A stretch of DNA of 64,000 nt from Microbacteriaceae bacterium (GCA_965660355.1 CBFHZN010000003.1:40211-104210), one strand, 5' to 3'. Counted from the stretch's first letter, positions 3,099-18,245 are shown. The notes: generated from the sequence alone by a model not told the origin. Numbers and translations: made by a program.

Positions 3099-4832
3099 TT
3101 AAACAGGGAAACTAGCTCCTGTTGGTTGAATGATAAAATCTAAATTAATAAATTCTGCTGTTTTAGTTGGTTGTATATAGATTTGACCCACTAATTGATT
3201 TCTATCTACCACATCTGGGGTGTTGTTTGTATCATCCATTATTACTTTAAAGGCATATAAACCTTCTTTTTGTTTAATTCTTTCCAAGTATGGATTTACG
3301 GTTGTTAAGAATTTATTTTGAGTTGTTAAAGTGTTTTGTTCAAATACTAAAGTATCTGCTACTTGTCCAATGTATGATTTTAATTCAATTAACAATCTTC
3401 GTACATTTACTCTATCTAAAGCTGATGATTCTTTTTGTAATGTTTTTTGCCCTGCTATAGAAACCTGATTGTCTTTAGTGGAAATAGGGTTAATATTATT
3501 ATCATATAAATCATTTTTAGAGGGTTGTGATAATTTGTATTCTGCTTTTTGGATAGTATTTAAACCTCCTCTATTTAAACCAGCGGGTGCGAACCATGGA
3601 GCTTTAACTCTATCATTAAATGCATATACTCCCCCTATTACAGTTGAGGCCGGTACCCATACAAGTTTCCCAGTTTCCGGATCTTGCATTCTAACCCAAG
3701 GCCAATAAGTAGCAGCATATGATGAATTCTTGCTTTGTGCTTGGGTTATTGCAGCAGTTCTTGTTGAACCATGTACTGTCATATCAGGAATATAAATGCT
3801 ATCTCCTCGTTCTTGAGTATTTGATATAATAGTATTAATAACTGATGAGTGTTCCGTGTCTACTAATCCGGGTGTTAATAACACATTAAATTTATAATCC
3901 TGGTTGTTTGAAAGTAGATTTACCATGTTTGTGTAATCAGCCGCTACTACTCCTTGGGTTTGTGTTGATATATTTTCATAAAAATTAGCCCCGGATGCAA
4001 CCTCCCCATCTGCTCCATCAAATGAATTATTTTGGAAAGGTGGTATAGTTCCAACATATGTTGGGTCTGGTAATCCATTTGCATCTAAATAGTTAGGGGT
4101 ATTTTTTAATACTTCTTTTATTCTAATATATTTTGAGGCGTTTGGGTAATTACCAGATATCACCTCTACTTGGTTTGTTGTTGGATTATAACCCATTTCT
4201 TCATCTCCTATTACTTTAGAAATGTAATTTGGAGAGGTTGGGTCTAAATTTACTCTATTGAAAGATTCTAAAATTACTTTATCATTCTCTCTATCGTTTC
4301 CTCTTCTTACTACAACATTAAATGTTCCTGATGCTGTTGAAGGATTAGTTATTTCTATACGTAAGTTATCAACAGTTCCATTAGATAATACACCACTAGC
4401 ATCAACAGATCCTGAACTATTCATTATAATCCCTTCGGATATTGTTTCTATTGTAAATACTATATCATTTGTTGTGTATGAATTATTTACGTATCCATTT
4501 ACTATATAACTACCACTTTCTACAACATCAAGTTCTGCGGATGTGAAAGATCCACTTGCTACTCGAGCAACTAATAATGAATTTCCTCCGGAATTAAAAT
4601 AATTAAAAGCGGAAATAGAAGTGAAATATGAATATGAATCACTGCCACTTATAAGAGATCCTCCAAATACATTTTTATAATCTGAGTATGAGGTTACTAA
4701 TGTTGGAAGTTCAACAGGTCCTTTTACTGTTGGGCCTATAATTGCTGCTCCTACTTTAGTAGGAAGTGGAGAATTAAATGATTGATCTAATTCGTTTAAG
4801 GTTACGCCTGGAGATGATGATAAGTTTGCCAT
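3099..4832 (-). CDS. Tail sheath protein, paralog 2 (T4 gp18-like)
   Basis: 577 aa. C-terminal block ALDRVNVRRLLIELKSYIG...DDTNNTPDVVDRNQLVGQIYIQPTKTAEFINLDF matches the gp18-family C-terminal signature. Confidence 0.9.
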   Translation of the reverse strand: MANLSSSPGVTLNELDQSFNSPLPTKVGAAIIGPTVKGPVELPTLVTSYSDYKNVFGGSLISGSDSYSYFTSISAFNYFNSGGNSLLVARVASGSFTSAELDVVESGSYIVNGYVNNSYTTNDIVFTIETISEGIIMNSSGSVDASGVLSNGTVDNLRIEITNPSTASGTFNVVVRRGNDRENDKVILESFNRVNLDPTSPNYISKVIGDEEMGYNPTTNQVEVISGNYPNASKYIRIKEVLKNTPNYLDANGLPDPTYVGTIPPFQNNSFDGADGEVASGANFYENISTQTQGVVAADYTNMVNLLSNNQDYKFNVLLTPGLVDTEHSSVINTIISNTQERGDSIYIPDMTVHGSTRTAAITQAQSKNSSYAATYWPWVRMQDPETGKLVWVPASTVIGGVYAFNDRVKAPWFAPAGLNRGGLNTIQKAEYKLSQPSKNDLYDNNINPISTKDNQVSIAGQKTLQKESSALDRVNVRRLLIELKSYIGQVADTLVFEQNTLTTQNKFLTTVNPYLERIKQKEGLYAFKVIMDDTNNTPDVVDRNQLVGQIYIQPTKTAEFINLDFIIQPTGASFPV

Positions 4833-4867: not shown

Positions 4868-6619
4868 TTATTCAAAAGTAACACCTGATGGAGTTATGTT
4901 GAATTCTAATTGTATAAATTCTACGGTTTTTGTAGGTTGGATGAATATCTGACCGATTAATAGGTTATTATTTACAGCTGATGGGGGGTTGTTTGTTTCA
5001 TCCATTATTACTCTAAAGTCATCTAATCCTTCTCTTTGTTGAACTGATGATAAGTAAGGATTAACTTGTGATAAAAAATCATTTCTAGTAGATGTTGTAT
5101 TTTGTTCAAATACTAAACCTTCTGCTACTCTACCGATAAAAGATTTTAACTCAATTAATAGTCTTCTTACGTTTACTCTATCTAAAGCTGATTTTTGTTT
5201 TTGAAGAGTTTTTTGTCCAAATACTACAACTCCTAAAGTTGGGGAAGTTATTAATGGATTTACATTCGCTTGATATAGAGCATCTCGGGTTGTTTGCTGT
5301 AGTTTTCTTTCAGCTCTTAATATTGTTGGTAATAATCCTCTAGTGGTTCCAGCAGGTGCTATCCAAGGCTCAGAAACACTATCATTAAATGCATATACTG
5401 AGGGGATTATAGTTGATGCTGGGATCCATATTTCTTCTCCAGTATTTGGGTCTAATGTTTGTAACCAAGGCCAGTAAGTAGTAGCATAAGTGTTATCAAT
5501 TGAGTTTGTTGAGGAGATGGTTGGGATTAGCATACTACCATATTCTACAGTATCTATAATAGCCATAGTATCCCCTCTTTCTCTACATTTTGTTATTAAT
5601 GATGTAATAACTGGGGTGTGAGTTGCTAAACTACTTATTAATCCTGGGGTAGAGATATATTTGAATTGGAATTCTTCTTTATTTCCTAAAAGGTTAATTG
5701 AGGAGGTATAATCACTAGCTTGTAATCCCTGGGTATTTGTGTTGTTGATAGAGCTATAATAATTTCCTACTCCAACAGGTAAGTTGGATCCTATAGCCCC
5801 ATTAAAGGAATTTTGTTGAGTAACAGGGATAAGTGAGGTAAAGGCAGCTACAGGGTCTCCATTATTATCTAAATAATTAGGGGTTTTTGTATTTACATTA
5901 CTTACTCTAACATAATTTGATTGATTAGAATAATTACCATTTGATTCTAAATAATAATCAGCACCATCATTAACTATACTGGTGGTTTGATTTCCTATTA
6001 CTTTTTCAATATAGTTAGGGGAGAATGGGTCTAATGATAAATTACTCCATGTTTCTAAAACTATTGGGGAATTTGTGTTATCATCTCCTCTTCTAATTAA
6101 AAGTGTAAATTCACCTGAGGATGTATTAGGGGAGGTTATTTGGATTCTTAAGTTATCTTGAGTTCCATCTGTTAAAGCCCCATTTGGGAGGAGAGAGGAT
6201 GAGGAGTTCATAATTAAACCTTCACTTAAAGTCTCTAAAGTAAATGCTATATCAGATGTTGAATATCCGGGTACAACATATCCTCCACTTATAAAAGTAT
6301 TGTTTGATATAACATCAAGTTCTGAGGGAGTAAAAGAACCACTTGTTACTCGAGTAACTAATAAGCTAGTTCCTCCCCTTTCAAAATAGTTATATGCTGA
6401 AACGGAGGTTAGGTAAGTGTATACTTGACTTCCACTTGTAAAAGTAGTTCCAAATTTATTGATGTATTGGGAATATGAAGTAACAACTGTGGGACTTTCT
6501 ACAGGACCTTTAACTGTAGGCCCCACAATTGCTGCTTGGATTTCGGGTGGTTGTTGTGTTATAAATGATTGATTATTTTCATTTAATACAACTCCAGGGG
6601 ATAAGATTGTTTCTGCCAT
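4868..6619 (-). CDS. Tail sheath protein, paralog 1 (T4 gp18-like)
   Basis: 583 aa. Collinear with 3099..4832 over its full length (by eye more than half identical), with the same C-terminal signature ALDRVNVRRLLIELKSFIG...IFIQPTKTVEFIQLEF. Confidence 0.9.
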   Translation of the reverse strand: MAETILSPGVVLNENNQSFITQQPPEIQAAIVGPTVKGPVESPTVVTSYSQYINKFGTTFTSGSQVYTYLTSVSAYNYFERGGTSLLVTRVTSGSFTPSELDVISNNTFISGGYVVPGYSTSDIAFTLETLSEGLIMNSSSSLLPNGALTDGTQDNLRIQITSPNTSSGEFTLLIRRGDDNTNSPIVLETWSNLSLDPFSPNYIEKVIGNQTTSIVNDGADYYLESNGNYSNQSNYVRVSNVNTKTPNYLDNNGDPVAAFTSLIPVTQQNSFNGAIGSNLPVGVGNYYSSINNTNTQGLQASDYTSSINLLGNKEEFQFKYISTPGLISSLATHTPVITSLITKCRERGDTMAIIDTVEYGSMLIPTISSTNSIDNTYATTYWPWLQTLDPNTGEEIWIPASTIIPSVYAFNDSVSEPWIAPAGTTRGLLPTILRAERKLQQTTRDALYQANVNPLITSPTLGVVVFGQKTLQKQKSALDRVNVRRLLIELKSFIGRVAEGLVFEQNTTSTRNDFLSQVNPYLSSVQQREGLDDFRVIMDETNNPPSAVNNNLLIGQIFIQPTKTVEFIQLEFNITPSGVTFE

Positions 6620-6943: not shown

Positions 6944-7447
6944 TTATTTTGATGTTTGCCAATCTTTTTGTAAGTCTAAGTATTTTTGTTGATCATCAGG
7001 GGTCATTTCCCACCACTTATCCATTTTCCAAACCCATCCCGTAAGTTGTGAGCATATAAGTCGTTTTGTTTCTAAATCCTCCCCATTAAATTTATATTTT
7101 TTTGTTATAAGCTTCCAGGGGATACGGAATATAAAAGTAAACAAATCATATTTTACTTTTCTTCCCACTATTGAAATTGCTCTTTTTGCTATGCTTTTAT
7201 ATTCTTGGGATGCATTGATATTTCTGTAGATTATATATTCATATCTCCACTTAGATTTCCACTCCTCTAGAGTATTTAATTCAACTCCTTTACGTTGCAT
7301 ATCAACAATATACATCCTACCCCAAATTTCTATAGCTATTGCAGTATGGGAATATTTTGAGTTTGTTGCTTTTCTAATTATGTTACTAAGTAAGCTATTC
7401 CTACTACATATTAGAATATCACCATGTTTTATTTTATTATCTTCCAT
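6944..7447 (-). CDS. Permuted papain-fold peptidase, YiiX/YaeF (C92)-like; candidate cell-wall hydrolase
   Basis: 167 aa. HGDILICSRNSLLSNIIRKATNSKYSHTAIAI ... KYDLFTFIF ... LICSQLTGWVW has the His-before-Cys order and spacing of the C92 family. Confidence 0.45.
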   Translation of the reverse strand: MEDNKIKHGDILICSRNSLLSNIIRKATNSKYSHTAIAIEIWGRMYIVDMQRKGVELNTLEEWKSKWRYEYIIYRNINASQEYKSIAKRAISIVGRKVKYDLFTFIFRIPWKLITKKYKFNGEDLETKRLICSQLTGWVWKMDKWWEMTPDDQQKYLDLQKDWQTSK

Positions 7448-7558: not shown

Positions 7559-7762
7559 TTATTTATTTATTTCAATCATCATCTTCATATGTTCTAACTC
7601 TTTCTCTTCTTTCCAATCAAGATATTCTTGTGGTTCTTCATCATACCACACCCAACCATCAATTTCTTTTTTATTATCTTCTGATAGTATATCTCCATTA
7701 GGTAATGTAATCATATTACCCCTTACCCACTTATCATTATTCTCTTCGTATTTATAAAACAT
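7559..7762 (-). CDS. Small conserved partner protein of LRR genes, copy 3
   Basis: 67 aa. Shares the (F/L)P(D/N)G.I(M/L).E(D/N)N..DG...(Y/W)..E.P.EY.(D/E)W pattern with 14130..14315 and 15797..15991, and sits directly downstream of an LRR gene. Confidence 0.6.
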   Translation of the reverse strand: MFYKYEENNDKWVRGNMITLPNGDILSEDNKKEIDGWVWYDEEPQEYLDWKEEKELEHMKMMIEINK

Positions 7763-7800
7763 AGTTTAATTTATTTTTTATAATATTAAGTTTATCTTAA

Positions 7801-9003
7801 TTATGTTACAACTGTCCATCCTTTAGCGGTTGCTATACTTGTATCACAACCAGCACTACCAGGCATTCCACTAACATCTATAGTCTGTGTTCCAGCAGCA
7901 GTTCCAAGTGATGTAAACAATTCATCTATTGCATCGGCAGTCATTTGATTACCACTTACATCAACACCAATGGTCAATCTATTCAATACAATTCTTTGAA
8001 GTGAACCAGTTGATAAGAACATACCAAGTGTATTATTAATATTAATACAATCAGTCATCACAACCTCTGGTAAACTTCTAGCATTTCTAAACATATATCT
8101 AGCATCTTCTAAAAGAGGCATATTAATTTCTCCTATACTATAAGGTCCATTGTTAACTGTACCACCAAAGAAATATAAACCAATTGTATTATTTAATGCA
8201 ATCACATCACCAATAGAATAATTATTAGCGTGTATAAAGAATGAATTTCCATTTGTTGTTGATGAACCAAGTGTCAAACGTCCTATCTTAAAGTTATCTG
8301 AATATCTAAAAACTGCATCACTTGTAGCATTATCAATACTTACATCTCCTAAATTTTGACCATATAAAGAAGTCCCATTAAAACCATCATCCCAATTAGA
8401 AACATCTATATTAAAGAAATTACTTGGTAATTCTAACTTTTTAAGTTTAGTCATATATCTAAAACATCTTAAATTACTACCCTCATTCGGTGATTTTAAA
8501 TATACGTGTTCACAAATATGAGCAATTGCTAATGTTGAAATATAAACTCTAGATGAACCAGAACCATCTGGATTACCATCTCCTAGATAACTAACTACTT
8601 CAAGTGCATTATGTGAATTCTCATCACCATCAACATAACATAAACAAGCTCTTGAACTCCCAGTATCTAATTCCATATCAACTTCAACAAGAACAGGTTT
8701 ATAATTTCTACCATCTTCTAATGTTAAAATAGGTACTCCTGTTATAGTAGAATAATCATATGTGTGTTGTATGTCAGGATAAGTTGTGCCACTTGCAGCA
8801 GTGCTTGTAGTACCATCGCCCCAATCAACTACAGAATCATTATTTAATGTAAACTTTAGAATATTCGGGTTATCCTCAATAACTGCAAATACAACATATA
8901 ATTTAGTTTCAGTACCATCATCTGCTGGAATTGCTGGCCATTGAGTATTTCTCTTCCAAATAAACTCTGGTCTTGCTTTAATATATCTTCCCACACTTCC
9001 CAT
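7801..9003 (-). CDS. BspA-type leucine-rich-repeat protein with PKD-like DWGDGT segment, paralog 3; putative receptor-binding/adhesin protein
   Basis: 400 aa. ..VVDWGDGTTSTAASG..HTYDYSTITG.. then repeated F..(C/A).SL..(I/V) units. Collinear with the C-terminal parts of 14317..15807 and 15984..18245. Confidence 0.6.
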   Translation of the reverse strand: MGSVGRYIKARPEFIWKRNTQWPAIPADDGTETKLYVVFAVIEDNPNILKFTLNNDSVVDWGDGTTSTAASGTTYPDIQHTYDYSTITGVPILTLEDGRNYKPVLVEVDMELDTGSSRACLCYVDGDENSHNALEVVSYLGDGNPDGSGSSRVYISTLAIAHICEHVYLKSPNEGSNLRCFRYMTKLKKLELPSNFFNIDVSNWDDGFNGTSLYGQNLGDVSIDNATSDAVFRYSDNFKIGRLTLGSSTTNGNSFFIHANNYSIGDVIALNNTIGLYFFGGTVNNGPYSIGEINMPLLEDARYMFRNARSLPEVVMTDCININNTLGMFLSTGSLQRIVLNRLTIGVDVSGNQMTADAIDELFTSLGTAAGTQTIDVSGMPGSAGCDTSIATAKGWTVVT

Positions 9004-9004
9004 A

Positions 9005-10525
9005 TTACTTCTCTATTTTTAATTTAATTACTGATGCCGTTGATACAGTTATTCCAATTTCATCTCCAAGTGATATAGAATTACCTAATGTATAAGCTGA
9101 ACCATTTATTGTTATTGTAGTTGTTGGGGCATTAACAATATTGTCTACTGCTGTTATACTAATAGCGTCATCAGCATATAATGTAGTTGATGTATCATCC
9201 ATTAAATCAATTGTCCATCTTTCTATTGCTACTGTTATTTCTCCATCTACATCTAATTTAGTTGATGGTGTTGAAGTTCCAATACCAACATCTCCATTGG
9301 GTTGTATTCTTACAACTTCTGTCGGGGTGGTATTGGAGGCCCAAAAGCTAAGACCGATTCTTGTATTACTACCGCCGTTATAAGGTCGTATTTCTGCATA
9401 ACTAGAAATAGACCCTGCATCTAATCGTATTCCATTTTCTCTAACGCTATTAATGGTAGTTGGCTCTGGTGGTGCATTTTCGATTCTTAGAATACCCTCG
9501 TCAATGTGGAGTTTATTTGTTGGAGAAGTTGTTCCAATACCTAAATTACCTTGAAAATAGCCATCACCAGCATCGTTAATATTAAAAATGGTTATATTAG
9601 ATTGATTATTAATTTTCATTGCATCTGTACTTGATGTGTTACCATTAGTTCTAATACCTAACATAGCACCCAATGATGGAATGCTAGGAAATGGTGAAAT
9701 GTTAAATCCTGCTGCACCTTTTACATAAGCACCAATACCACCACCAACAATTAAACCAATACCAACATTATTACTAATCCAAGTTATTGAATTATAACCA
9801 TTAACTAATCTTTTTATAGCAATACCACCATCACCAGTACTTACACCTTTTACTAAAAAATCACCATCATTAACGTGTAATTTATATGTTGGTGTTGTTG
9901 TTCCAATACCTATAAGACCATTATTTGTAGCGTTTAATAAAATATTCCCGTCACTACCCGAGAAATACCCTACACCTGTTTCTAAAACAATGTTTTTCCC
10001 CGAATTTTGAGATGGGGTTTGTTCGCTCAATCTACCGTTAGATGAAACTATTTTGGTTTCGTACCCCGGAAAATTTAGTGTTGAAGTAGTCGCACCTAAT
10101 GTTATTGTACCACCTATATAATTTGAAAATGAAAGTATTGGATAGTTTTCGCCACCTGTTCCGACTAATTTATCTGAATATATCCTAAATATTTTGTTAT
10201 TTACTTCATTCCTAAATTCTGCTTGTAAGTCAGCTGAATTTGAATTAAATTGAAAATACTGATAACCATTCGAAACTGGAAATCTAATATAACTATTTGA
10301 GTTTCCATTAATGTAATTACCCTGAGCAGAGTTTCCAGTTAAAGTAATATTATTTTCAAATATTTCTATTCTTTTGTTGCTGTCACCCATTCTAGTCATT
10401 GTTAGCTTACCATCAGCGTCAATATCTAGTATCTTCCCATTCTCGCTTTTAATCTCAAATATAGTTCCGCTAGTCAAATTACTAATCCAACTAATTGCTC
10501 CTTGTACTCGTTTTAAAAATCCCAT
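9005..10525 (-). CDS. Tail fibre-like protein with repeated GIGT..P..KL.(V/I) motifs
   Basis: 506 aa, Gly/Asn/Ser/Thr-rich. Three copies of the motif: GIGTTTPTYKLHVNDG, GIGTTSPTNKLHIDEG, GIGTSTPSTKLDVDGE. Confidence 0.6.
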   Translation of the reverse strand: MGFLKRVQGAISWISNLTSGTIFEIKSENGKILDIDADGKLTMTRMGDSNKRIEIFENNITLTGNSAQGNYINGNSNSYIRFPVSNGYQYFQFNSNSADLQAEFRNEVNNKIFRIYSDKLVGTGGENYPILSFSNYIGGTITLGATTSTLNFPGYETKIVSSNGRLSEQTPSQNSGKNIVLETGVGYFSGSDGNILLNATNNGLIGIGTTTPTYKLHVNDGDFLVKGVSTGDGGIAIKRLVNGYNSITWISNNVGIGLIVGGGIGAYVKGAAGFNISPFPSIPSLGAMLGIRTNGNTSSTDAMKINNQSNITIFNINDAGDGYFQGNLGIGTTSPTNKLHIDEGILRIENAPPEPTTINSVRENGIRLDAGSISSYAEIRPYNGGSNTRIGLSFWASNTTPTEVVRIQPNGDVGIGTSTPSTKLDVDGEITVAIERWTIDLMDDTSTTLYADDAISITAVDNIVNAPTTTITINGSAYTLGNSISLGDEIGITVSTASVIKLKIEK

Positions 10526-10528
10526 ATC

Positions 10529-11080
10529 TTAATCTTTTTGCTCAACAATTATTTTCCCTTCTAGATTCTGTTCTGTCATAACGTGTGGCATCATAATCTC
10601 AAAGTCAGATTTACCATTTTCATTAGGCGTTTGACTAATTGAACTATAATAAGCAGTGAAATACTTATCTCCTTTGAATATATGTTTTTCAGTTGATTGT
10701 GCGTTCAAACGCTGCTCCCTTGTGATGACTTCGGCAACGTCAATTAGATTATCACTAATTAAAACTTCATTCAGCCATTCAATGGGTATTAACATCCGAA
10801 TTGACTTGCTGTCAATTAACCAGTTTTGATTCTCTTCCTCAACTATAAAGTCAGTCAACTTTTCTTCGGCTAATTTAGCAAGACATTCATCGTGAATAGA
10901 TACTGTTTCGAAGAACTTGTCCGCTATCTGAAAGGTTGTGAACTTGTGAACTTCCGTTTTACTTGGCTCAATGTTATCAGACGCTAAATCGAACACATCG
11001 AATCCAACGTGATTGTTACTTGTGTTAATCTTAGTGATTATGACTTTTTGACCTGTTGTTTTATTGTATAAATTTTTCAT
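10529..11080 (-). CDS. Hypothetical protein between the fibre genes
   Basis: 183 aa ORF, closely spaced with its neighbours. No motif recognised. Confidence 0.5.
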   Translation of the reverse strand: MKNLYNKTTGQKVIITKINTSNNHVGFDVFDLASDNIEPSKTEVHKFTTFQIADKFFETVSIHDECLAKLAEEKLTDFIVEEENQNWLIDSKSIRMLIPIEWLNEVLISDNLIDVAEVITREQRLNAQSTEKHIFKGDKYFTAYYSSISQTPNENGKSDFEIMMPHVMTEQNLEGKIIVEQKD

Positions 11081-11091
11081 TTTCTTTTATA

Positions 11092-13359
11092 TTAATTTTC
11101 ATACACATCCCATTCTCTAGTAGTCAGAGAGTCGTCTGTCGCTGATGTTGTGTATTGCAGGTTTCTTACTACTGTATTGTTTGAATTTACTGTATTTTCA
11201 AAAGTTGTAGTTTTGCAGTCTGTGAAAGTGTTGTTGTTGCCTGAATTTGTAATGCCTGAATTGAAAATTGTGTTTTTAATATTACTAAAAGGATAATTAG
11301 AAAAATTAACAGGTTGGTTAAATATACATTTATCGACAATAAATAGGTTTTCTCCTGCATTAGTACTAGCTGTGACGAAACTAGTCGTTATATTAAAAAC
11401 ACAATTTTCAATAATTATTTCATCATTCCCGTTGAAACTAGTTATTATATTAGGTTGAGCAGTAATTGTAGAATTTCTTAATTTAAATTTTCTACTATTA
11501 TTAGGTCTATTAGTCAGACCTTTAAAAATTCCTCCATTATAGCTGCCGCCGTTAAATACAAGAAACTCTCCTTCTACATTTGCATAATAATCACTTTCAT
11601 GGTTTATTTCTATATTACCAGATAAAATATTAATACTTTTAATAACTTTAGCTCTTATTCGTGTATCTCCTCCGTCTATTGTAAGACCATCAATAACAAA
11701 ACTATTCGTTCCTATTCCTTCTATACATCTTTCTGTATTATTAGTAACTTTCATATAGCAATTACTAATATAAGCTTGTTGGCTTTGGTTGTATGTACCT
11801 ATAAATCTTGTAGCATTGATATTTCCTGTAGAAACAAAATAAGAATTTTTAATTATGAGACTAGACCTAGATAAATTATTAGTAGTGTTAATGAGATAAC
11901 AATTAGCTGTGTTAATTTGGCTATTTAGGTTGCAATTATCAAAAACTAAATTGATCTCACCAGTAATTCCTGGATTATGTAGTAAATTTGCGCCATTATT
12001 TCCTGGTGTATTGCTAGAGCCTATAATGTTACAACATCTAAATTCAACTTTTATAAATTTTTCGTTGTTATTATATGGTCCTGCTTCAATTTGATTAGTA
12101 CCTAAATTAATAGCATCTCCGTTACCTATTAAAAGAAACTCATTTTGGATAGAAGTGCTTTGCGTTTCAGTAATTTCTCCAACTTGTTTTAAGATGTATT
12201 TGCCATCAGCTACTGCTGCTTGAATAGACGTGTAATCTGCACCCGTTGTGCCTACTGTTGGAGGTACTATTCCTGTTAGTTGTGATCCATCTCCTTGAAA
12301 GGAGCCTGTAAAAGAACCAGAGAATGAACCCGTGTTGTGTGTTTGTTTGAATTCATCTAAATCAAAGTACACTGTACGATTTTCTGGTCTTACATACAAG
12401 ACACCTTGAGTAGGTGAATTTGACGCATTTAATACCTTCCCTATACGAATTGCTTTTATTGGGGGTGTTGGGATTATTGTGGTTGCTGATCCAGATACTG
12501 TTGAGGATAAATATAATTGATCATCTGTGTTAAATGATGTTAAATTTAGACCACGAGCTACACCATTCAACATGATGGCTCCAAAATTATTTACCCCTAT
12601 ATCTTGTAATACAACTCCAATAAAACATGAACAATCTGCACCAGAGGTTGCTATGGCTCTTTTTACACGAGGGGTTTGTCCTGTAGTGGTTGAGGTGAAA
12701 TCAACTATGGTGCCTTTGGTTAAAGTAACAGTATCGGCATTTCTTACACGAGCATACAAGGTTTGTCCCAACTCAATTGGGACATCATTTTCTATGTAAA
12801 ATGTAAATCGACCATCATCAAATGAATATCCTAAATCACCTTGTGTTCCTGTGAATGTGCCTTGTTGGGTAAATGATATTCTATCGGTTTGTAAAGAACC
12901 ACTTAATAATATTGCTTGTACTGTGTTTGTTACATCAATGCTCCCACTAACTGAAAGTGATCCTGTTATCTCAACATCACTATCACGTGTAATGGGATTA
13001 GAGCCTGACCATTTGGATGATATTAGGCCAGTTAACTGTGAACCATCCCCAATAAAACTACCTGTAAATGATCCGGTGTTATATATTTGTGTAAATGTTT
13101 CAAAGCTACCAGATAAAATATCTATACTAGAGCTGTTTGCAAGTATTCGTGTGTCAAATGATGAGCTATCCTGTACATATGAGGATGTAAAATCATTAAA
13201 TACTGTTAAAGGTGTATAGCTACCAGAGGCAGATGTTTGAGTTAAATATCCAACATCATTTACTAAAAGAGATATAAGGTTCCCCTCAAACAAAACTCCT
13301 TTAAATTTGGAGTTTTGCCATAAGTTATTATAGGTTCGTTTGGGGGTTTGTTCTGCCAT
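11092..13359 (-). CDS. Tail fibre / beta-helix-like structural protein
   Basis: 755 aa. Duplicated segment (YNTGSFTGSFIGDGSQLTGL and HNTGSFSGSFTGSFQGDGSQLTGI). Asn-rich C-terminal repeats resemble a right-handed beta-helix. Confidence 0.55.
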   Translation of the reverse strand: MAEQTPKRTYNNLWQNSKFKGVLFEGNLISLLVNDVGYLTQTSASGSYTPLTVFNDFTSSYVQDSSSFDTRILANSSSIDILSGSFETFTQIYNTGSFTGSFIGDGSQLTGLISSKWSGSNPITRDSDVEITGSLSVSGSIDVTNTVQAILLSGSLQTDRISFTQQGTFTGTQGDLGYSFDDGRFTFYIENDVPIELGQTLYARVRNADTVTLTKGTIVDFTSTTTGQTPRVKRAIATSGADCSCFIGVVLQDIGVNNFGAIMLNGVARGLNLTSFNTDDQLYLSSTVSGSATTIIPTPPIKAIRIGKVLNASNSPTQGVLYVRPENRTVYFDLDEFKQTHNTGSFSGSFTGSFQGDGSQLTGIVPPTVGTTGADYTSIQAAVADGKYILKQVGEITETQSTSIQNEFLLIGNGDAINLGTNQIEAGPYNNNEKFIKVEFRCCNIIGSSNTPGNNGANLLHNPGITGEINLVFDNCNLNSQINTANCYLINTTNNLSRSSLIIKNSYFVSTGNINATRFIGTYNQSQQAYISNCYMKVTNNTERCIEGIGTNSFVIDGLTIDGGDTRIRAKVIKSINILSGNIEINHESDYYANVEGEFLVFNGGSYNGGIFKGLTNRPNNSRKFKLRNSTITAQPNIITSFNGNDEIIIENCVFNITTSFVTASTNAGENLFIVDKCIFNQPVNFSNYPFSNIKNTIFNSGITNSGNNNTFTDCKTTTFENTVNSNNTVVRNLQYTTSATDDSLTTREWDVYEN

Positions 13360-13507
13360 CTATATTAAAAATGAGTTTGATTATATGGTGTTTTCTTGAT
13401 AGGTATTAAAATCATTACCTATTTCAATCTTGGTTAATGTATCAATAATTTTGGTTTCTTTTGTTTCTAACATCCCACTATTACTGTATATACGTCCATG
13501 TTTTCTT

Positions 13508-14119
13508 TCATAGTTTAAACTTTTCTTCAAAATATTTATGTTTTCCTTTTTTCTTGTCTCGTTTGTTTTTTACAATCATTTGAATTGTGTAGCTAATTGA
13601 TTTAATTGAAAAATTAAGTGGTTGAGGTCTATAATTATCTATTAAAATAAACCGAAAAACTTCTGAAAGAAAAGCAGAACCAGAACCAAAAAACATAGCA
13701 GGAACAACGTATGAGTCACGTTTTCCGTGCCTTGACATTTTAAGCATCAAATCAGACATTTTGTAAGTCAAAGCAGTTCCGAATGTCCCTTCAGCTACTC
13801 CGTAATATGACCATGCTATGTCTTGGTAGGAGAAAAGTCCATTTTGTTTAAAATTGTAGTCGTATATTTCTTTTCCTACAATTGGTAAAGTTGATGCTAC
13901 TGTTGTCCTTAATGCTGCACGCCAATAATTAACGTTGTTGTCAATCATATAAGTAGTGCCAAACACACCCATTCCAAAGCCAACTAACTCATGCTTTTGT
14001 TTATCTTTACCATAACTCCAAGAGTCTTTTAAACCCTCCTGAGCGTTAACTGTTGTAGATAAAATTGCGATAATAAAAATTAACTTTTTCATAATTATTT
14101 GTTTTAAGTTTGGGGACAA
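13508..14119 (-). CDS. Secreted/membrane protein inside the receptor-binding cluster (DUF2279/YfiM-like is a weak guess)
   Basis: Likely start at M10 (14092): MKKLIFIIAILSTTVNAQ is a signal peptide. Later hydrophobic segments and a basic C-terminus. Confidence 0.5.
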   Translation of the reverse strand: MSPNLKQIIMKKLIFIIAILSTTVNAQEGLKDSWSYGKDKQKHELVGFGMGVFGTTYMIDNNVNYWRAALRTTVASTLPIVGKEIYDYNFKQNGLFSYQDIAWSYYGVAEGTFGTALTYKMSDLMLKMSRHGKRDSYVVPAMFFGSGSAFLSEVFRFILIDNYRPQPLNFSIKSISYTIQMIVKNKRDKKKGKHKYFEEKFKL

Positions 14120-14129
14120 TATACGAAAA

Positions 14130-14315
14130 TTAAGTTAATTCCTCGTTTTGCTCTTTCCAATCTAAGTACTTTTGCGGAGGTGTTTCTGCGTAAAAATACC
14201 CGTCACGTTCAAAATCGTGGTTATCTTCATCCATTATTTGACCGTCGGGAAATATCAACTTTGATACATTTTCCCACGTTCCGTCTTCTTTCTCTCTGTA
14301 TATTTTCTTTTCCAT
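14130..14315 (-). CDS. Small conserved partner protein of LRR genes, copy 2
   Basis: 61 aa. ..IFPDGQIMDEDNHDFERDGYFYAETPPQKYLDWKE. Its start lies 1 nt after the upstream LRR gene stop. Confidence 0.65.
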   Translation of the reverse strand: MEKKIYREKEDGTWENVSKLIFPDGQIMDEDNHDFERDGYFYAETPPQKYLDWKEQNEELT

Positions 14316-14316
14316 A

Positions 14317-15807
14317 TTATGCGTATGCTATTGTGTATCCCTTACCAGTTGCTATTCCTGTTGGCTCGCCACTTGTGAAAGCTGGCAGTGTTATTGTTTG
14401 CGCTCCTGATGCTGTACCAAGTGAATCGAATAAATCTTGCAAGTTTTGCCCTGTGATTTGAGTCTCTTTAATATCAAAACCCACTGTGATACCTGTTAAT
14501 AATAATCTTTTCAGTGAAAAACAATCTGTGAACGCTGCAAATGTGTTTGTCACTCCTGACATATCGCCCAAAAATTCTATTTTTCTAACGCTTTCACACC
14601 TATTAAATGTCGTGCTAAGCCTAGTTAATGATGATCCTACTGTTATCGTTCCTATTTCAGTTAGTACTTTATTTCCTATAAACATCTGAAGCAAATCAGT
14701 TGCCATTGGAGCGTATATATTACCCACTTTTCTAATTCTGCTATTTCTGAACATCTGATTAAGGTTGCCTGAGTTTACATTAGAAAAAGTTAGATTTCCT
14801 ATTTCACTTATAGCTGATGTATCAAAGGCACGACCTCCTGCTGTTTGGTCTGAATTTATATTTATAGGATTCCCGTTTAAATCTCTAACATTTCCCAAAG
14901 CTGTAAAGGCATCTATTAAACTGCCCATTGGATAAGTAGAGGAATCGTAATCAAAAATACGTAAATTTGACATACCTTGATTTACAGCGTTAAACTGACC
15001 TATATCCCCCGTAATAACTAAACGCTCCAATAATCTACATTTATATCTTGCCGTAACTGATGGTTGAAATACTAATCCGCTTATGCCTGTTGTGTCTAAT
15101 CTAATATCTAGCCAGTTCTGAGTTCTTTCATTAACCCCTGTCGTTGGGCTTGTTATTTCTGAAATAAATAATTGAGTAATATTACTAGGTAAATCAATTT
15201 GAACGATAACCATTTTGTAATTAAAACCATTACCGTCAACTAAAACAGGGCTTGTTATTGTTGCATAGTCGTAAACGTGGTTTTCTGTTCCTGTGCTTGT
15301 GACCGTTGTGCCGTCACCCCAATCAATTAAACTTGCTGTGCCGTTCTTATTAATAGCGACTGCATTAAATCCATTCTCATAAACCGCAAACAAACCATAA
15401 AAAACATTATCCCCAGCCGTTACCGTTGGCATATCTAACCAATCTGGATTTCTTGTCCACCATCCTTGATCTGGTGTTATATCCAAATTAACATCATCCC
15501 CACTAACACTATCAACTGTTATTGCGTTACCGTCAGCGTCTAGTAGATTAAAGTTCTTTGAACCGCCTGAAGGAATTGAAGCAGTTACTTCGTTGGTGTT
15601 GATTGTTGCTGTGGCGGCAGGCGCTGCAATTTCCAAATCATTACCTGCCAGCGTGTTGTTTGTAGCTATTGGATTTCCATCTGTATCTACAGTCGAAACA
15701 CTTAAAGTATCGCCACTCGCAACCGTACCTAGGTTGGTGGAGTTGACGTCTATTGTTACTTTAGGACATTTTAACTTCCTTATAGTTATAGTTTTATTAG
15801 AACTCAT
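14317..15807 (-). CDS. BspA-type LRR protein with PKD-like segment, paralog 2; putative receptor-binding protein
   Basis: 496 aa. GWWTRNPDWLDMPTV..IDWGDGTTVTSTG..HVYDYATIT.. then LRR units (MFRNSRIRKVGNI, TFNRCESVRKIEF, AFTDCFSLKRLLL). The C-terminal 48 aa are nearly identical to those of 15984..18245. Confidence 0.65.
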   Translation of the reverse strand: MSSNKTITIRKLKCPKVTIDVNSTNLGTVASGDTLSVSTVDTDGNPIATNNTLAGNDLEIAAPAATATINTNEVTASIPSGGSKNFNLLDADGNAITVDSVSGDDVNLDITPDQGWWTRNPDWLDMPTVTAGDNVFYGLFAVYENGFNAVAINKNGTASLIDWGDGTTVTSTGTENHVYDYATITSPVLVDGNGFNYKMVIVQIDLPSNITQLFISEITSPTTGVNERTQNWLDIRLDTTGISGLVFQPSVTARYKCRLLERLVITGDIGQFNAVNQGMSNLRIFDYDSSTYPMGSLIDAFTALGNVRDLNGNPININSDQTAGGRAFDTSAISEIGNLTFSNVNSGNLNQMFRNSRIRKVGNIYAPMATDLLQMFIGNKVLTEIGTITVGSSLTRLSTTFNRCESVRKIEFLGDMSGVTNTFAAFTDCFSLKRLLLTGITVGFDIKETQITGQNLQDLFDSLGTASGAQTITLPAFTSGEPTGIATGKGYTIAYA

Positions 15808-15991
15808 AATTTTCTATATTTTCTTGATTTTCCAACCATTCAGTATATTCCGTTGGTGGCTCTTCTGACCAAAAGAAACCATCTCTTGCAAAGTCGTGGT
15901 TATTTTCATCCATGATTTGACCATCAGGAAACACAACTTTTGTATAATTTCCCCAATTTCCGTGTTCGTCTATTCTGTATATTTTATGCAT
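15797..15991 (-). CDS. Small conserved partner protein of LRR genes, copy 1
   Basis: 64 aa. ..VFPDGQIMDENNHDFARDGFFWSEEPPTEYTEW. Overlaps both flanking LRR genes (by 8 and 11 nt). Confidence 0.65.
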   Translation of the reverse strand: MHKIYRIDEHGNWGNYTKVVFPDGQIMDENNHDFARDGFFWSEEPPTEYTEWLENQENIENYEF

Positions 15992-18245
15992 ATGCTATTG
16001 TATATCCTTTTCCTGTTGCTATTCCTGTTGGCTCTCCACTTGTAAAGTTAGGTAGTGTTATTGTTTGTGTTCCATTTGCTATACCAATTGAATCAAATAA
16101 ATCTTGTAAGTTTTGTCCTGTGATTTGTGACCATCTTATGTCGAAGCCTACTGTAATGTTGGGGAGGATTAAGCGTCTTAGGGAGTTACACTCTTGAAAT
16201 GTTTGGTTAGTATTATTTACCCCCGACATATCTCCTGCAAAAATAATTTCTTTTAAACTAAACGCTCTAAAAAATGCTAGGGATAAATTTAAAAGAGACA
16301 CTCCAACTGTAATTGTGCCTATTGAATATAATTTATAACAGAAATAGAAAGCCCCGTCTAATTGAGTTGCACTTGGAATGTTAATATCACCTATTTCTTG
16401 AATATTACTATTTATGAAAAACATTCTTCTTTGACTTTCACCTAATAAATCAGTGATATTTCCTACTTTAGAAATTAAAGTTTCTTGAAATGCAAACTGC
16501 TGACCAGATGAAGGTCCTGATATTGTTTGAGCATTAATACTTACAGGTGTGCCATTTGCGTCTGCCCTAAAATCATTAAAAGAACCAAACTCAGTCCTTA
16601 TCTGATTAAACCAATTATAATCTACAACTTTTAAATTAGGGCATAATTTTGCATTACGCAACCTTACTAAATCCCCTATAATATTTATTCGCTCCAAATA
16701 ATTCATCCTATATTGATTATTATTCGATGCATCAAAACTCAAGTTAAAAATTCTTGTACTGCTAATAGCTACATCCAACCAATTTTGAGGTCTTAAATTT
16801 GTTCCTGTTGTGGGTGTTGTGGTTCTATCTATTTGAACTAGAAGAGTAGTACTATCAAAGTCAAACTCAACCATCACTTGCTTATAATTCCTACCATCGT
16901 CTGAAACTAATACAGCACCCGAAATAGTTGAATAGTCGTAAACATGGTTGTACGTTTGATTTGCACCACTTCCTGAATCAGTCGCACCATCGCCCCAATC
17001 AATAGAATGATTGCCACCACTCAATAAGATAGCCACCGCATTAAAATCATCCTCAAAAACCGCATACAACCCCGCAAACTTGTTATCCCCCTCGTTTATA
17101 GTTGGCATTGGTAACCATCCCTCAGGACGTTCCCACCAAACTTTAGGGCAAAAACTTTCCAACTCTATAACTTGATCTGACATTGCTGGGAAAGTGAGGG
17201 TATCTAATACATTACCATCCTCATCTTCAATAACATAGTTAATATCGTTAAGTTCTCCAGTTGCTCCTGAGAATATAGATTGACTGAATGAGTTGTCTGA
17301 GTTAATTACGGTTGCTGGGCGACATACTGGGGCAGGTAAGGGAGGGGTTGAGGGTGGTGTTGGAGAGAGGTTATCAATTTCTACACCAAATGTTAATTTT
17401 GATTTACTGTTGTATTTTTTAATGGAGTTTAAATCCTTTTGCACCACATCAGGAACTATATATCCATTTATCTTTAAGGTAAATGTACTTCGTACTACTC
17501 TGTTTGTCCCTTGATTTAACTCATTGGTTGTAGCAAATGAATCAATGCGTGCTTTAAACTTAAAACGTTCAGGATCGCCCCAGTATGAATCAGATGCATA
17601 ATTAATTGATTCAACGATTTTATTCAGTTGTTCCACATAGTATGTTTGCACTATGAAGCTATATGTTAATGTAACATAATCAGGAACAACATTTGCTATA
17701 AATTGCTTATTGGGAACTCTATTATTTAAAACATCAAAATTGGAATATGAATTCTTTTTATTATATGCTGTTTGCCAAAAAGTATATAAATGAGGATCAT
17801 TAGCATCTAACTTTCTTGTAATGCTTCTATTTTTGGTGATATCATCCCTCTTGAATACCGCGATAGGCATCATCAATTTCCCATTTTTATCCCTTATGAT
17901 ACCATCTTTTTGAATTGCTTTAAAACGCTCAGGAGAACCATATACCAAAGGTACTGGGATTCTTTCCCCATTTTGAATTACAAATGGTTTTATAACATTT
18001 TCAAAATAGTATAGTACTGCCTCATCAACATCTTGCAGATTAACCGAAAATGGTTTATGAGTATCCCCTGTATGGGATAATTTTTCTGCTCTATTGTGGT
18101 CTACTCCCTTTTGTGATTTGGGTGTAAATTGTCTAAAATCTATAGAAGGATCAACACCCTCTCCGGTTTCCGGATTTGAGTAAGGGTTTATCAAATTATT
18201 TGATATTTCCTTTTGAGATTTTGGTGTTGGTTTTTTATTTGCCAT
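15984..18245 (-). CDS. Fusion protein: T4 gp15-like tail completion/neck-proximal domain (N-terminal about 290 aa), Pro-rich linker, and BspA-type LRR domain
   Basis: 753 aa. The N-terminal part (..IPVPLVYGSPERFKAI.., ..TLTYSFIVQTYYVEQLNKIVE.., ..TFTLKINGYIVP) resembles gp15 and follows the gp13/gp14-like genes. Linker PTPPSTPPLPAP. The C-terminal 450 aa is collinear with 14317..15807. Confidence 0.55.
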   Translation of the reverse strand: MANKKPTPKSQKEISNNLINPYSNPETGEGVDPSIDFRQFTPKSQKGVDHNRAEKLSHTGDTHKPFSVNLQDVDEAVLYYFENVIKPFVIQNGERIPVPLVYGSPERFKAIQKDGIIRDKNGKLMMPIAVFKRDDITKNRSITRKLDANDPHLYTFWQTAYNKKNSYSNFDVLNNRVPNKQFIANVVPDYVTLTYSFIVQTYYVEQLNKIVESINYASDSYWGDPERFKFKARIDSFATTNELNQGTNRVVRSTFTLKINGYIVPDVVQKDLNSIKKYNSKSKLTFGVEIDNLSPTPPSTPPLPAPVCRPATVINSDNSFSQSIFSGATGELNDINYVIEDEDGNVLDTLTFPAMSDQVIELESFCPKVWWERPEGWLPMPTINEGDNKFAGLYAVFEDDFNAVAILLSGGNHSIDWGDGATDSGSGANQTYNHVYDYSTISGAVLVSDDGRNYKQVMVEFDFDSTTLLVQIDRTTTPTTGTNLRPQNWLDVAISSTRIFNLSFDASNNNQYRMNYLERINIIGDLVRLRNAKLCPNLKVVDYNWFNQIRTEFGSFNDFRADANGTPVSINAQTISGPSSGQQFAFQETLISKVGNITDLLGESQRRMFFINSNIQEIGDINIPSATQLDGAFYFCYKLYSIGTITVGVSLLNLSLAFFRAFSLKEIIFAGDMSGVNNTNQTFQECNSLRRLILPNITVGFDIRWSQITGQNLQDLFDSIGIANGTQTITLPNFTSGEPTGIATGKGYTIAYA

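What the first reader, a model, noticed from the sequence alone, without database searches (positions are those of the whole stretch)
7559..18245. Triplicated two-gene cassette: BspA-type LRR/PKD-like putative receptor-binding protein plus a conserved 61-67 aa partner
Seen in sequence. Three paralogous C-terminal modules are present in 15984..18245, 14317..15807 and 7801..9003. Each has a W.(R/K)...W..(M/I)P segment, DWGDG(T/A)T, (H)(V/T)YDY(S/A)TI(S/T), and then LRR units of the form F..C.SL..(I/L). Each is followed immediately by a small paralogous gene (15797..15991, 14130..14315, 7559..7762) sharing FPDGQIMDE(D/N)NHDF.RDG(Y/F)F and E.PP..Y..W. Starts and stops overlap or abut, which implies translational coupling. 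Established knowledge: BspA-like LRR (LRR_5) proteins are cell-surface adhesins, mostly in Bacteroidota, spirochaetes and some protists, and small genes downstream of fibre genes are often fibre chaperones or adaptors. Inference: the phage may carry three alternative or simultaneous LRR-based receptor-binding proteins, each with a dedicated small chaperone of an undescribed family.
Basis: partly seen in the sequence, partly recalled or inferred. Interest (0 to 1): 0.7.

Follow-up and report, generated by a model that had tools for sequence, protein, structure and literature searches.

The report
Triplicated phage LRR adhesin–partner cassette
This phage carries three diverged copies of a two-gene unit, a leucine-rich-repeat probable host-binding protein followed by a 60-residue acidic partner, which is widespread in uncultured phages but undescribed, and one copy is fused to the protein that caps the top of the tail.

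Summary
Three paralogous ~385-aa modules (46%, 29% and 28% identity; E 1e-110 to 2e-26) are each followed by a paralogous 61-67 aa gene.

The pair is a conserved unit. The module has more than 300 relatives in IMG/VR viral contigs. In 74 of 89 testable cases a small-family gene lies immediately downstream.

The BspA/DUF285-type LRR call holds at profile level (4fs7, E 1.4e-13) but not for the window proteins under Pfam's own cut-off. The PKD call is not supported.

The small protein folds confidently (pLDDT 84.5). It matches no Pfam, PHROG, NCBIfam or PDB entry and no cultured phage.

- The first 290 aa of the 753-aa protein resemble the T4 gp15 tail terminator, so that copy probably sits at the neck.
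- The 400-aa copy follows a fibre gene whose last ~70 aa are conserved wherever this type of module follows a fibre.
- The central LRR region varies, while the N-domain, the C-cap and the small protein are conserved.

Receptor binding and a chaperone role for the small protein remain inferences. Verdict: a new variant of the pattern of a receptor-binding gene followed by an accessory gene, of moderate interest.

The parts
17376..18245 (-). Residues 1-290 of the 753-aa protein: a T4 gp15-like tail terminator / tail-sheath stabiliser domain
   Evidence: - The profile of 13 homologues has T4 gp15 as its top PDB hit (E 0.016, two collinear segments).
- hhalign against T4 gp15: probability 72.8%, E 3.2e-5, 162 columns.
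- Foldseek on a low-confidence model: 4huh gp15, probability 0.92-0.94, E about 0.1.
- It follows a gp13 homologue (phrog_211; BLASTP to T4 gp13 E 2e-7) and a 170-aa gene in the gp14 position.
- In Microcystis phage Mel-JY01 the homologue sits between those two genes and sheath/tube.
- It is a stand-alone 282-291 aa protein in relatives.
- The family has 6396 clusters.
17148..17375 (-). Residues 291-366 of the 753-aa protein: Pro-rich linker (SPTPPSTPPLPAP) plus one ~48-aa spacer repeat
   Evidence: - Relatives that are ~90% identical up to residue ~290 carry an unrelated ~125-aa C-terminal domain or none, so this is the junction of a domain swap.
- The repeat resembles the two N-terminal repeats of the 496-aa protein weakly (z 2.2-3.0).
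15984..17147 (-). Module A (residues 367-753): conserved N-domain, variable LRR region, conserved C-terminal cap
   Evidence: AlphaFold2 is confident only for residues ~650-753 (pLDDT above 94).
15797..15991 (-). Small partner 1 (64 aa, pI 4.3)
   Evidence: - Overlaps the stop of the 753-aa gene by 8 nt.
- Family membership E 4e-34.
- AF2 model pLDDT 84.5: short beta strands followed by a C-terminal helix.
15472..15807 (-). Residues 1-112 of the 496-aa protein: two ~48-aa spacer repeats
   Evidence: Internal repeat with local alignment z = 5.1 against shuffles. No Pfam or PHROG hit.
14317..15471 (-). Module B (residues 113-496)
   Evidence: 46% identical to module A. It has 59 database homologues.
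14130..14315 (-). Small partner 2 (61 aa)
   Evidence: Separated from the 496-aa stop codon by a 1-nt spacer. 57% identical to small partner 1.
9005..10525 (-). 506-aa tail fibre protein. Its last ~70 residues (9005..9220) are a conserved joint that precedes short-type modules.
   Evidence: - Matches phrog_18345 and phrog_9942, both 'tail fiber protein'.
- Residues ~436-506 are conserved (40-67% identity) at the C-terminus of the gene directly upstream of the module gene in 13 of the 14 other loci that match the fibre. The rest of those proteins differs.
7801..9003 (-). Module C (400 aa): the minimal module with no N-terminal extension
   Evidence: - 28-29% identical to modules A and B.
- Starts 1 nt after the fibre gene's stop codon.
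- 47% identical to the modules in L022-L024, which follow the same type of fibre.
7559..7762 (-). Small partner 3 (67 aa), of the MFYKYEE... subtype
   Evidence: Lies 38 nt after the module C stop codon. Family membership E 6e-26. The same subtype accompanies short-type modules in L027 and L058.

Best explanation
The window holds three old paralogues of a mobile two-gene unit that is common in uncultured tailed phages.

Gene 1 ends in a ~385-aa module with three parts:
- a conserved ~110-aa beta-rich N-domain (W.R..W..P ... DWGDG ... YDY ... NYK.V.V);
- a poorly conserved BspA/DUF285-type leucine-rich-repeat region;
- a strongly conserved C-terminal cap (..LFxSLGTAxGxQTIT....T.IATxKGYT..).

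Gene 2 is a 60-aa, very acidic, Trp-rich protein made of short beta strands and a C-terminal helix.

Most likely mechanism (inferred): the LRR region is the ligand-binding surface of a virion-displayed host-adhesion module, and the three copies have different specificities. They are mounted at three sites:
- (A) covalently on the gp15-like tail terminator, so probably six copies at the neck;
- (B) on a free protein behind two short spacer repeats, attachment site unknown;
- (C) as a separate subunit docked on the conserved C-terminal joint of the 506-aa fibre.

The small protein is made from the same transcript. It probably binds the conserved part of the module, most likely the C-cap, as a module-specific folding or capping partner. 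Whether it stays in the virion is open.

Shown: paralogy, LRR homology at profile level, the conserved pairing, the fibre and terminator contexts, and the conservation pattern.
Inferred: receptor binding, neck display, physical contact between the two proteins, and the chaperone role.
For: Pairing:
- The module has at least 302 relatives in IMG/VR.
- A small-family ORF lies at -52 to +39 nt downstream of 74 of 89 module genes that have room downstream.
- Six more module genes carry a divergent 50-60 aa ORF 6-12 nt downstream or overlapping the stop by 16 nt.
- All 7 testable small-seeded loci have the module upstream.
- The backbones are mostly unrelated to this phage, so the pair moves as a unit.

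LRR:
- The profile hits 4fs7 and 4gt6 at E 1.4e-13 and 4.9e-12.
- LRR_5 and DUF285 are found in 14 and 7 of 51 members.
- Flavobacterium prophage-like members with the same N-domain and C-cap show canonical DUF285 repeats.

Tail or fibre role:
- The genes directly upstream in unrelated contigs are collagen-like tail fibre or tailspike PHROGs.
- The last ~70 aa of the 506-aa fibre are conserved at the C-terminus of the gene directly upstream of 13 other module genes.
- A remote member matches Synechococcus phage S-CBWM1 gp93, annotated 'putative tail protein'.
- One copy is fused to a gp15-like protein.

Conservation:
- Mean pairwise identity is 0.20 for the central region, 0.33 for the N-domain and 0.53 for the C-cap.
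- The small proteins listed are mostly 60-86% identical to small partner 1, while the best module homologue is 56% identical.
- Small-protein identity tracks the C-cap best, though weakly (rho 0.37).

The small gene is kept even where the module is covalently anchored (cassette A). This argues that it serves the module itself, not virion attachment.
Against: - There is no experimental or predicted contact between the two proteins. No multimer prediction was possible, and the tool returns no coordinates.
- The AF2 model of the 753-aa protein was poor (mean pLDDT 49; residues 350-600 below 50). The solenoid and the N-domain fold are therefore not visualised.
- The module family has members with no small partner: tandem arrays in L056 and in Flavobacterium genomes, and cyanophages S-CBWM1 and S-SKS1. 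The partner is therefore not universally required.
- Tight gene spacing is ordinary in phage late operons, and the third pair has a 38-nt gap.
- The gp15 similarity is marginal on each sequence or fold measure taken alone.
- No cultured phage carries this subfamily, so there are no virion proteomics to lean on.
Confidence: 0.45

Rival explanations
1. The small protein is a stoichiometric structural subunit of the mature adhesin, not a transient chaperone. It would act as a trans cap or co-receptor-binding piece on the LRR protein, as T2/S16 gp38 sits on the tip of gp37.
For: - The pairing is as strict as for the main explanation.
- The small protein folds autonomously with good confidence (pLDDT 84.5).
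- It is under strong purifying selection.
- Overlapping or abutting genes fit equimolar synthesis.
Against: - A receptor-contacting subunit would be expected to vary with specificity. The small protein is instead among the most conserved parts of the unit.
- Related modules exist without it.
- There are no virion data.
Confidence: 0.25
2. The LRR modules are virion decorations that bind something other than the primary receptor, for example capsular or environmental polysaccharide or particles, giving reversible enrichment near hosts. Alternatively they are not virion proteins at all but intracellular protein-binding effectors, with the small acidic protein as their regulator or inhibitor.
For: - LRRs are generic protein- and ligand-binding scaffolds.
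- A neck position (cassette A) is far from the baseplate, where irreversible binding occurs.
- The small protein is very acidic (pI 4.3-4.4), as many inhibitor or mimic proteins are (my own knowledge).
Against: - The intracellular reading is hard to reconcile with fusion to a tail terminator.
- It also conflicts with the constant position directly after tail-fibre genes and the conserved fibre joint.
- The accessory-adhesin reading is not excluded and overlaps with the main explanation.
Confidence: 0.15
3. The small gene has an unrelated function (regulation, anti-defence, or superinfection exclusion like T5 Llp next to its receptor-binding gene). It merely hitch-hikes with the module gene.
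For: - Small genes next to receptor-binding genes can have such roles. T5 llp is an example from my own knowledge.
- No direct interaction evidence was obtained here.
Against: - It has no signal peptide or lipobox (sequence).
- The pairing survives transfer between unrelated phage backbones and three different N-terminal architectures.
- Small-protein subtypes track module subtypes.
Confidence: 0.08

Closest known systems
BspA-type LRR (Pfam LRR_5, PF13306) and DUF285 (PF03382) surface proteins of Bacteroidota, Mollicutes and Firmicutes. Solved examples: 4fs7 and 4gt6.
   Same: - The repeat type is the same (F..C.SL..I units).
- The family profile matches 4fs7 and 4gt6 at E about 1e-13.
- Some members pass the Pfam models.
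- Flavobacterium members show textbook DUF285 repeats.
   Different: - These are encoded by phages.
- They have no signal peptide or T9SS/LPXTG sorting signal.
- They carry a family-specific N-domain (W.R..W..P / DWGDG / YDY) and a family-specific C-cap.
- The window proteins themselves stay below Pfam's cut-offs.
- They are paired with a 60-aa partner gene.
Tail-fibre gene followed by its assembly or accessory gene: lambda stf-tfa, Mu S-U, P2 H-G, T4 gp37-gp38/gp57A
   Same: - The accessory gene lies immediately downstream of the host-recognition gene and is often translationally coupled.
- The accessory protein is specific to its fibre.
- The unit is exchanged between phages as a cassette.
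   Different: - There is no sequence or fold similarity to Caudo_TAP/Tfa, gp38 or gp57A.
- The client is a presumably monomeric LRR solenoid rather than a trimeric beta-helical fibre, so trimerisation help is not the obvious need.
- The partner is only ~60 aa.
T4 gp15 tail terminator, and neck-mounted adhesins or fibres: T4 fibritin whiskers, phi29 gp12 appendages, lactococcal neck passage structure, Goslar collar filaments
   Same: - The N-terminal 290 aa match gp15 in profile, fold hint and gene position.
- Neck-located host-interaction structures are known. That rests on my own knowledge, plus the Goslar preprint 10.64898/2026.04.21.720040.
   Different: - Here the binding module is fused to the terminator polypeptide itself.
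- None of the 120 listed closest homologues (294-425 aa), nor the stand-alone homologues in the fetched loci, carries an LRR module.
- I did not find a described terminator-adhesin fusion in the papers searched.
Synechococcus phage S-CBWM1 gp93 ('putative tail protein') and S-SKS1 gp142
   Same: The three-part plan is the same: a beta-domain with the WGDG motif, DUF285 repeats, and a C-cap ending ..KGW.V. They match the family profile at E about 1e-19 to 1e-20.
   Different: - They have no W.R..W..P motif.
- No small-family gene is adjacent.
- Their function is likewise untested.

Membership tests
BspA-type LRR (Pfam LRR_5, PF13306) | The protein scores above the Pfam gathering threshold | tested here: not met
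   The 753-aa protein scores 12.4 bits (E 0.15) against a cut-off of 27.7. The 496-aa and 400-aa proteins give no hit.
BspA-type LRR (Pfam LRR_5, PF13306) | Homology to solved or curated family members at profile level | tested here: met
   The profile of 51 homologues hits 4fs7 at E 1.4e-13 and 4gt6 at E 4.9e-12, with several repeat-register alignments. 14 of 51 members hit LRR_5, best E 3.9e-12.
BspA-type LRR (Pfam LRR_5, PF13306) | Curved beta-solenoid fold | tested here: inconclusive
   The AF2 model has pLDDT below 50 over residues 350-600. Only residues ~650-753 are confident, showing short strands every ~10-25 residues and then the cap.
DUF285 (PF03382) | Match to the Pfam model, and repeats of the type F..mF..C.sL..vP.ldTs | tested here: inconclusive
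   7 of 51 family members match (best E 1.7e-22). Flavobacterium members with the same N-domain and C-cap show canonical repeats. The three window proteins give no DUF285 hit.
PKD domain (PF00801 / PF18911) | Sequence or profile match of the DWGDG...YDY domain to PKD | tested here: not met
   No PKD hit for the window proteins at E up to 1. The N-domain profile (58 sequences) finds only antibody V domains at E above 0.1 in the PDB. PKD_4 appears in 1 of 58 members at E 0.083.
Phage tail-fibre assembly chaperones (Caudo_TAP/Tfa, T4 gp38, gp57A) | Gene immediately downstream of the fibre or receptor-binding gene | tested here: met
   True for all three window pairs and for 74 of 89 homologous loci.
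Phage tail-fibre assembly chaperones (Caudo_TAP/Tfa, T4 gp38, gp57A) | Sequence or fold homology to a known chaperone family | tested here: not met
   No Pfam, PHROG or NCBIfam hit. Foldseek against the PDB gives a best E of 0.34. BFVD gives only one uncharacterised 59-aa protein.
Phage tail-fibre assembly chaperones (Caudo_TAP/Tfa, T4 gp38, gp57A) | Binds the fibre protein and is needed for its folding or assembly | not testable with these tools
   No multimer prediction is available and no coordinates are returned. This needs co-expression and pull-down experiments.
T4 gp15-type tail terminator | Sequence, profile or fold similarity to gp15 | tested here: met
   - hmmsearch top PDB hit, E 0.016.
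- hhalign probability 72.8%, E 3.2e-5 over 162 columns.
- Foldseek probability 0.92-0.94 on a low-confidence model.
Each measure is marginal alone, but they agree.
T4 gp15-type tail terminator | Gene position after the gp13/gp14 neck genes and before sheath and tube | tested here: met
   - The window order is gp13 homologue, a 170-aa gene, the 753-aa gene..., sheath.
- Mel-JY01 and loci L026, L027 and L055 have the stand-alone homologue followed by one small ORF (83-104 aa) and then the sheath gene.
- The T4 order was checked.
T4 gp15-type tail terminator | Hexameric ring capping tube and sheath in the virion | not testable with these tools
   This needs cryo-EM or a reliable oligomer prediction.
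Phage receptor-binding protein (functional class) | Virion component that binds a host surface receptor | not testable with these tools
   Only context supports it: fibre genes upstream, a variable central region, and fusion to a tail protein.

The most novel reading that the evidence does not exclude
The LRR module and its 60-aa partner form an obligate two-subunit adhesin. This would be a distinct, widespread class of non-fibrous, monomeric-solenoid receptor-binding device in aquatic phages, especially those infecting Bacteroidota. It plugs into different virion sites through interchangeable N-terminal adaptors. In this phage it is displayed at the neck as well, by direct fusion to the tail terminator, giving a virion with three specificities at three heights.
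Probability: 0.3. Interest if true: 0.7.

Novelty: new variant of a known kind. Interest (0 to 1): 0.55.

Why it matters
Receptor-binding proteins of marine and freshwater Bacteroidota phages are, to my knowledge, largely uncharacterised, and this limits host prediction from viromes.

A recognisable, portable LRR-plus-partner cassette offers three things:
- a marker for host-recognition genes in uncultured phages. It has more than 300 relatives in IMG/VR and 131 small-protein clusters at 50% identity;
- a defined variable region in which to look for specificity determinants;
- a new small protein family whose role (chaperone, cap or subunit) can be tested directly.

The terminator-LRR fusion would be an unusual way of placing an adhesin at the phage neck.

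Tried and rejected
1. AF2 of the whole 753-aa protein with a mixed 64-sequence alignment gave a poor model (pLDDT 49). It was used only for the confident C-cap and as a weak fold hint for gp15.
2. Fusing module and small protein into one chain to mimic a complex was prepared and then dropped. The tool returns no coordinates or PAE, so an interface could not be read.
3. The PKD reading of the DWGDG/YDY domain was rejected.
4. The long proteins hit by the small-protein profile turned out to be RTX, C-type lectin, FG-GAP, InlB-repeat and Big_6 proteins hit through short repeats. They are not informative domain fusions.
5. The weak Pfam hits to CheC, Tachylectin, Fascin and the Chlorovirus repeat are all below threshold and were ignored.
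6. Longer variants of the small protein (95-169 aa) gave no Pfam clue.
7. Literature searches (DUF285, BspA, LRR_5, tail fibre, S-CBWM1) found no description of this cassette. They found only annotations of DUF285/BspA proteins in jumbo phages and predicted LRR host-recognition proteins in phage Goslar.
9. The correlation of small-protein divergence with module segments is weak (rho 0.22-0.37). It is only a hint that the C-cap is the contact site.
10. The 170-aa protein shows no BLASTP similarity to T4 gp14. Its assignment rests on position only.

Full report
**1. The observation**

All genes in 4.8-21 kb lie on the - strand.
- The large ORFs are 15984..18245 (753 aa), 14317..15807 (496 aa) and 7801..9003 (400 aa).
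- They share a ~385-aa C-terminal module: 46% identity, E 1e-110; 29%, E 1e-31; 28%, E 2e-26.
- Each large ORF is followed by a small ORF: 15797..15991, 14130..14315 and 7559..7762. These are mutually homologous, at 57% and 34% identity to the first.
- The junctions are an 8-nt overlap, a 1-nt spacer and a 38-nt spacer. Small1 also overlaps the start of the 496-aa gene by 11 nt.
- DNA identity between cassettes A and B is 73-76% over their best-conserved stretches, so these are old paralogues.
- The window has no fourth copy.

**2. The large proteins**

Pfam on the three proteins gives only a sub-threshold LRR_5 hit for the 753-aa protein (12.4 bits against a cut-off of 27.7). PHROGs and NCBIfam give nothing.

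The family as a whole is clearly of the LRR_5/DUF285 type.
- 59 database homologues were found.
- Of 51 aligned members, 14 match LRR_5 (best E 3.9e-12) and 7 match DUF285 (best E 1.7e-22).
- The family profile hits the LRR proteins 4fs7 (E 1.4e-13) and 4gt6 (E 4.9e-12), with multiple in-register repeat alignments. That these two are BspA-like is my recollection.
- Members in Flavobacterium genomes have the same N-domain and C-cap flanking textbook DUF285 repeats.

The N-terminal ~110 aa of the module (W.R..W..P, DWGDG, YDY, NYK.V.V) is not detectably PKD.

Conservation along the module is high at the N-domain and highest at the C-terminal ~60 aa. It is lowest in the central LRR region. Mean pairwise identities are 0.33, 0.53 and 0.20.

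AF2 of the full 753-aa protein was poor, except for a very confident C-cap.

**3. The pair is a conserved, mobile unit**

- In the 80 loci kept plus 8 small-seeded loci, a small-family ORF lies at -52 to +39 nt downstream of 74 of 89 module genes with at least 250 bp downstream. The only two 'unpaired' small hits sit at contig ends.
- Six more module genes have a divergent 50-60 aa ORF (MKIEIVPEYYIHV...) 6-12 nt downstream or overlapping the stop by 16 nt.
- Only about seven loci share backbone genes with this phage, so the pair travels between unrelated phages.
- Some family members lack the small gene: three tandem module genes in L056, arrays of 3-4 in two Flavobacterium genomes and a Bacteroidetes MAG, and cyanophages S-CBWM1 and S-SKS1.

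**4. The small protein**

- 62 clusters at 90% identity.
- 131 representatives at 50% identity among 1.84 billion proteins. Almost all are stand-alone proteins of 45-140 aa. The few long hits are unrelated repeat proteins.
- No Pfam, PHROG or NCBIfam family.
- pI 4.3-4.4, with 9-12 aromatic residues.
- AF2 with 62 sequences gives pLDDT 84.5: strands 4-7, 13-16 and 39-41, and helix 47-60.
- Foldseek finds nothing in the PDB (best E 0.34). In BFVD it finds only an uncharacterised 59-aa phage protein.
- Neither the small proteins nor the 400-aa and 496-aa proteins have any tblastn match in 50,697 GenBank phage records.

'Undescribed family' stands within these libraries.

**5. Three structural contexts (new)**

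(A) Terminator fusion. Residues 1-290 of the 753-aa protein belong to a huge family of aquatic phage proteins (6396 clusters, typically ~298 or ~420 aa). These are stand-alone in relatives.
- The family profile's best PDB hit is T4 gp15 (E 0.016).
- hhalign gives probability 72.8%, E 3.2e-5 over 162 columns.
- Foldseek on the weak model ranks gp15 with probability 0.92-0.94.
- The gene follows a gp13 homologue and a 170-aa gene.
- In Mel-JY01, L026, L027 and L055 the homologue is followed by one small ORF (83-104 aa) and then the sheath gene. This mirrors the T4 order 13-14-15...18-19.
- Relatives ~90% identical up to residue ~290 carry an unrelated ~125-aa C-terminal domain or none.

So this protein is a tail terminator whose C-terminal payload has been swapped for a Pro-rich linker, one spacer repeat and the LRR module. 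The inference is six copies displayed at the neck.

(B) Free-standing copy. The 496-aa protein has two ~48-aa spacer repeats before the module (z 5.1). Its anchoring is unknown.

(C) Fibre-linked copy. The 400-aa protein is the bare module. It starts 1 nt after the stop of a 506-aa tail-fibre gene (PHROG tail fibre).
- The last ~70 aa of that fibre are conserved at the C-terminus of the gene directly upstream of 13 other module genes (12 of them bare, short-type). The rest of those fibres differs.
- In other contigs the upstream gene is a collagen-like tail fibre or tailspike.

This suggests that the fibre's C-terminal joint docks the module's N-domain.

**6. Mechanism**

The variable LRR region between conserved ends, the fibre and terminator contexts, and the cassette mobility fit a host-adhesion module with three specificities.

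The small protein is more conserved than the module as a whole. It is kept whatever the N-terminal architecture, even when the module is covalently anchored. Its divergence tracks the C-cap best, though weakly (rho 0.37).

I therefore favour a partner that acts on the conserved C-terminal part of the module, in folding or capping. It may or may not remain in the virion. None of this is shown directly.

**7. Comparison and novelty**

- The kind is known: a receptor-binding gene followed by a dedicated accessory gene.
- LRR/DUF285 proteins have been annotated in phages: pir03, S-CBWM1 'putative tail protein', and predicted LRR host-recognition proteins in Goslar.
- I could not find any of the following described: this N-domain/LRR/C-cap subfamily, its 60-aa partner family, the strength and breadth of their linkage, or the terminator fusion.
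- The rating is 'new variant of a known kind'. Interest is 0.55: it is useful and partly surprising, but functionally unproven.

Noticed in passing
window 3099..4832 and 4868..6619 (- strand): There are two tandem, full-length tail-sheath paralogues (577 and 583 aa), 53% identical end to end. Relatives L055 and L026 show a single sheath gene in the stretch sampled. A duplicated sheath gene seems unusual to me.
   Followed up: partly
window 13508..14119 (- strand); L020 5296..5985; L002 11579..11695: A 203-aa protein with a predicted N-terminal signal peptide (read from the sequence) matches YfiM/DUF2279-like models below their cut-offs (phrog_26616 'lipoprotein'). It lies directly after small partner 2. 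Homologues lie directly after the small gene in the two closest foreign cassettes, L020 and L002. In L020 it is followed by short hydrophobic (holin-like) ORFs and, about 1 kb further on, an ORF that looks like an amidase; both are readings of the N-terminal sequences only. It could be a lysis or superinfection-exclusion gene, or a third member of this sub-clade's cassette.
   Followed up: partly
window 17376..18245; proteins P0125-P0244: The gp15-like terminator family is very abundant in aquatic metagenomes (6396 clusters). It comes in ~298-aa and ~420-aa forms. The longer form carries a conserved ~125-aa C-terminal domain of unknown family, with no Pfam hit. Terminator proteins with variable C-terminal payloads may be a general feature of this phage group.
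   Followed up: partly
L094, L097 (Flavobacterium genomes), L098 (Bacteroidetes MAG); L056: These loci hold tandem arrays of 3-4 module paralogues with canonical DUF285 repeats and no small partner. In L097 the array lies a few kb downstream of a lysin-like ORF (read from the sequence) and is interspersed with 119-aa ORFs (MATPTPLNDILQWF...) that I take to be fibre-like N-terminal proteins. L056 has three tandem module genes without a small gene.
   Followed up: partly
L059, L041, L075, L038, L065, L066 (just after the module gene stop, or overlapping it): A second, divergent 50-60 aa ORF type (M.IEIVPEYYIHVTADNGKLLTNGEV...W.EIDE.P) occupies the small-partner position. The small-family HMM does not detect it. 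It may be a remote branch of the same family.
   Followed up: no
window 6944..7447 (- strand): A 167-aa protein lies between cassette C and the sheath genes. It gives a sub-threshold match to the YiiX-family permuted papain-like enzyme model (NCBIfam E 6.8e-10, 38.8 bits against a cut-off of 216; phrog_1128).
   Followed up: no
window 11092..13359 (- strand); inverted repeat 11260-11285 / 11387-11412: The 755-aa fibre-like protein has an internal duplicated motif (TGSF.GSF.GDGSQLTG) and an Asn-rich C-terminal half. A 26-nt inverted repeat, 96% complementary with 101 nt between the arms, lies inside its 3' coding region.
   Followed up: no
L018, L026, L027, L058, L055 vs the window: In backbone relatives the fibre, module and small genes sit between PhoH and the gp13-like adaptor gene (in L027 only the last 50 aa of the fibre gene lie on the contig). 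In this window, and in L075, the modules sit between the terminator and sheath genes. The same backbone therefore has two alternative insertion hot spots for host-recognition cassettes.
   Followed up: partly
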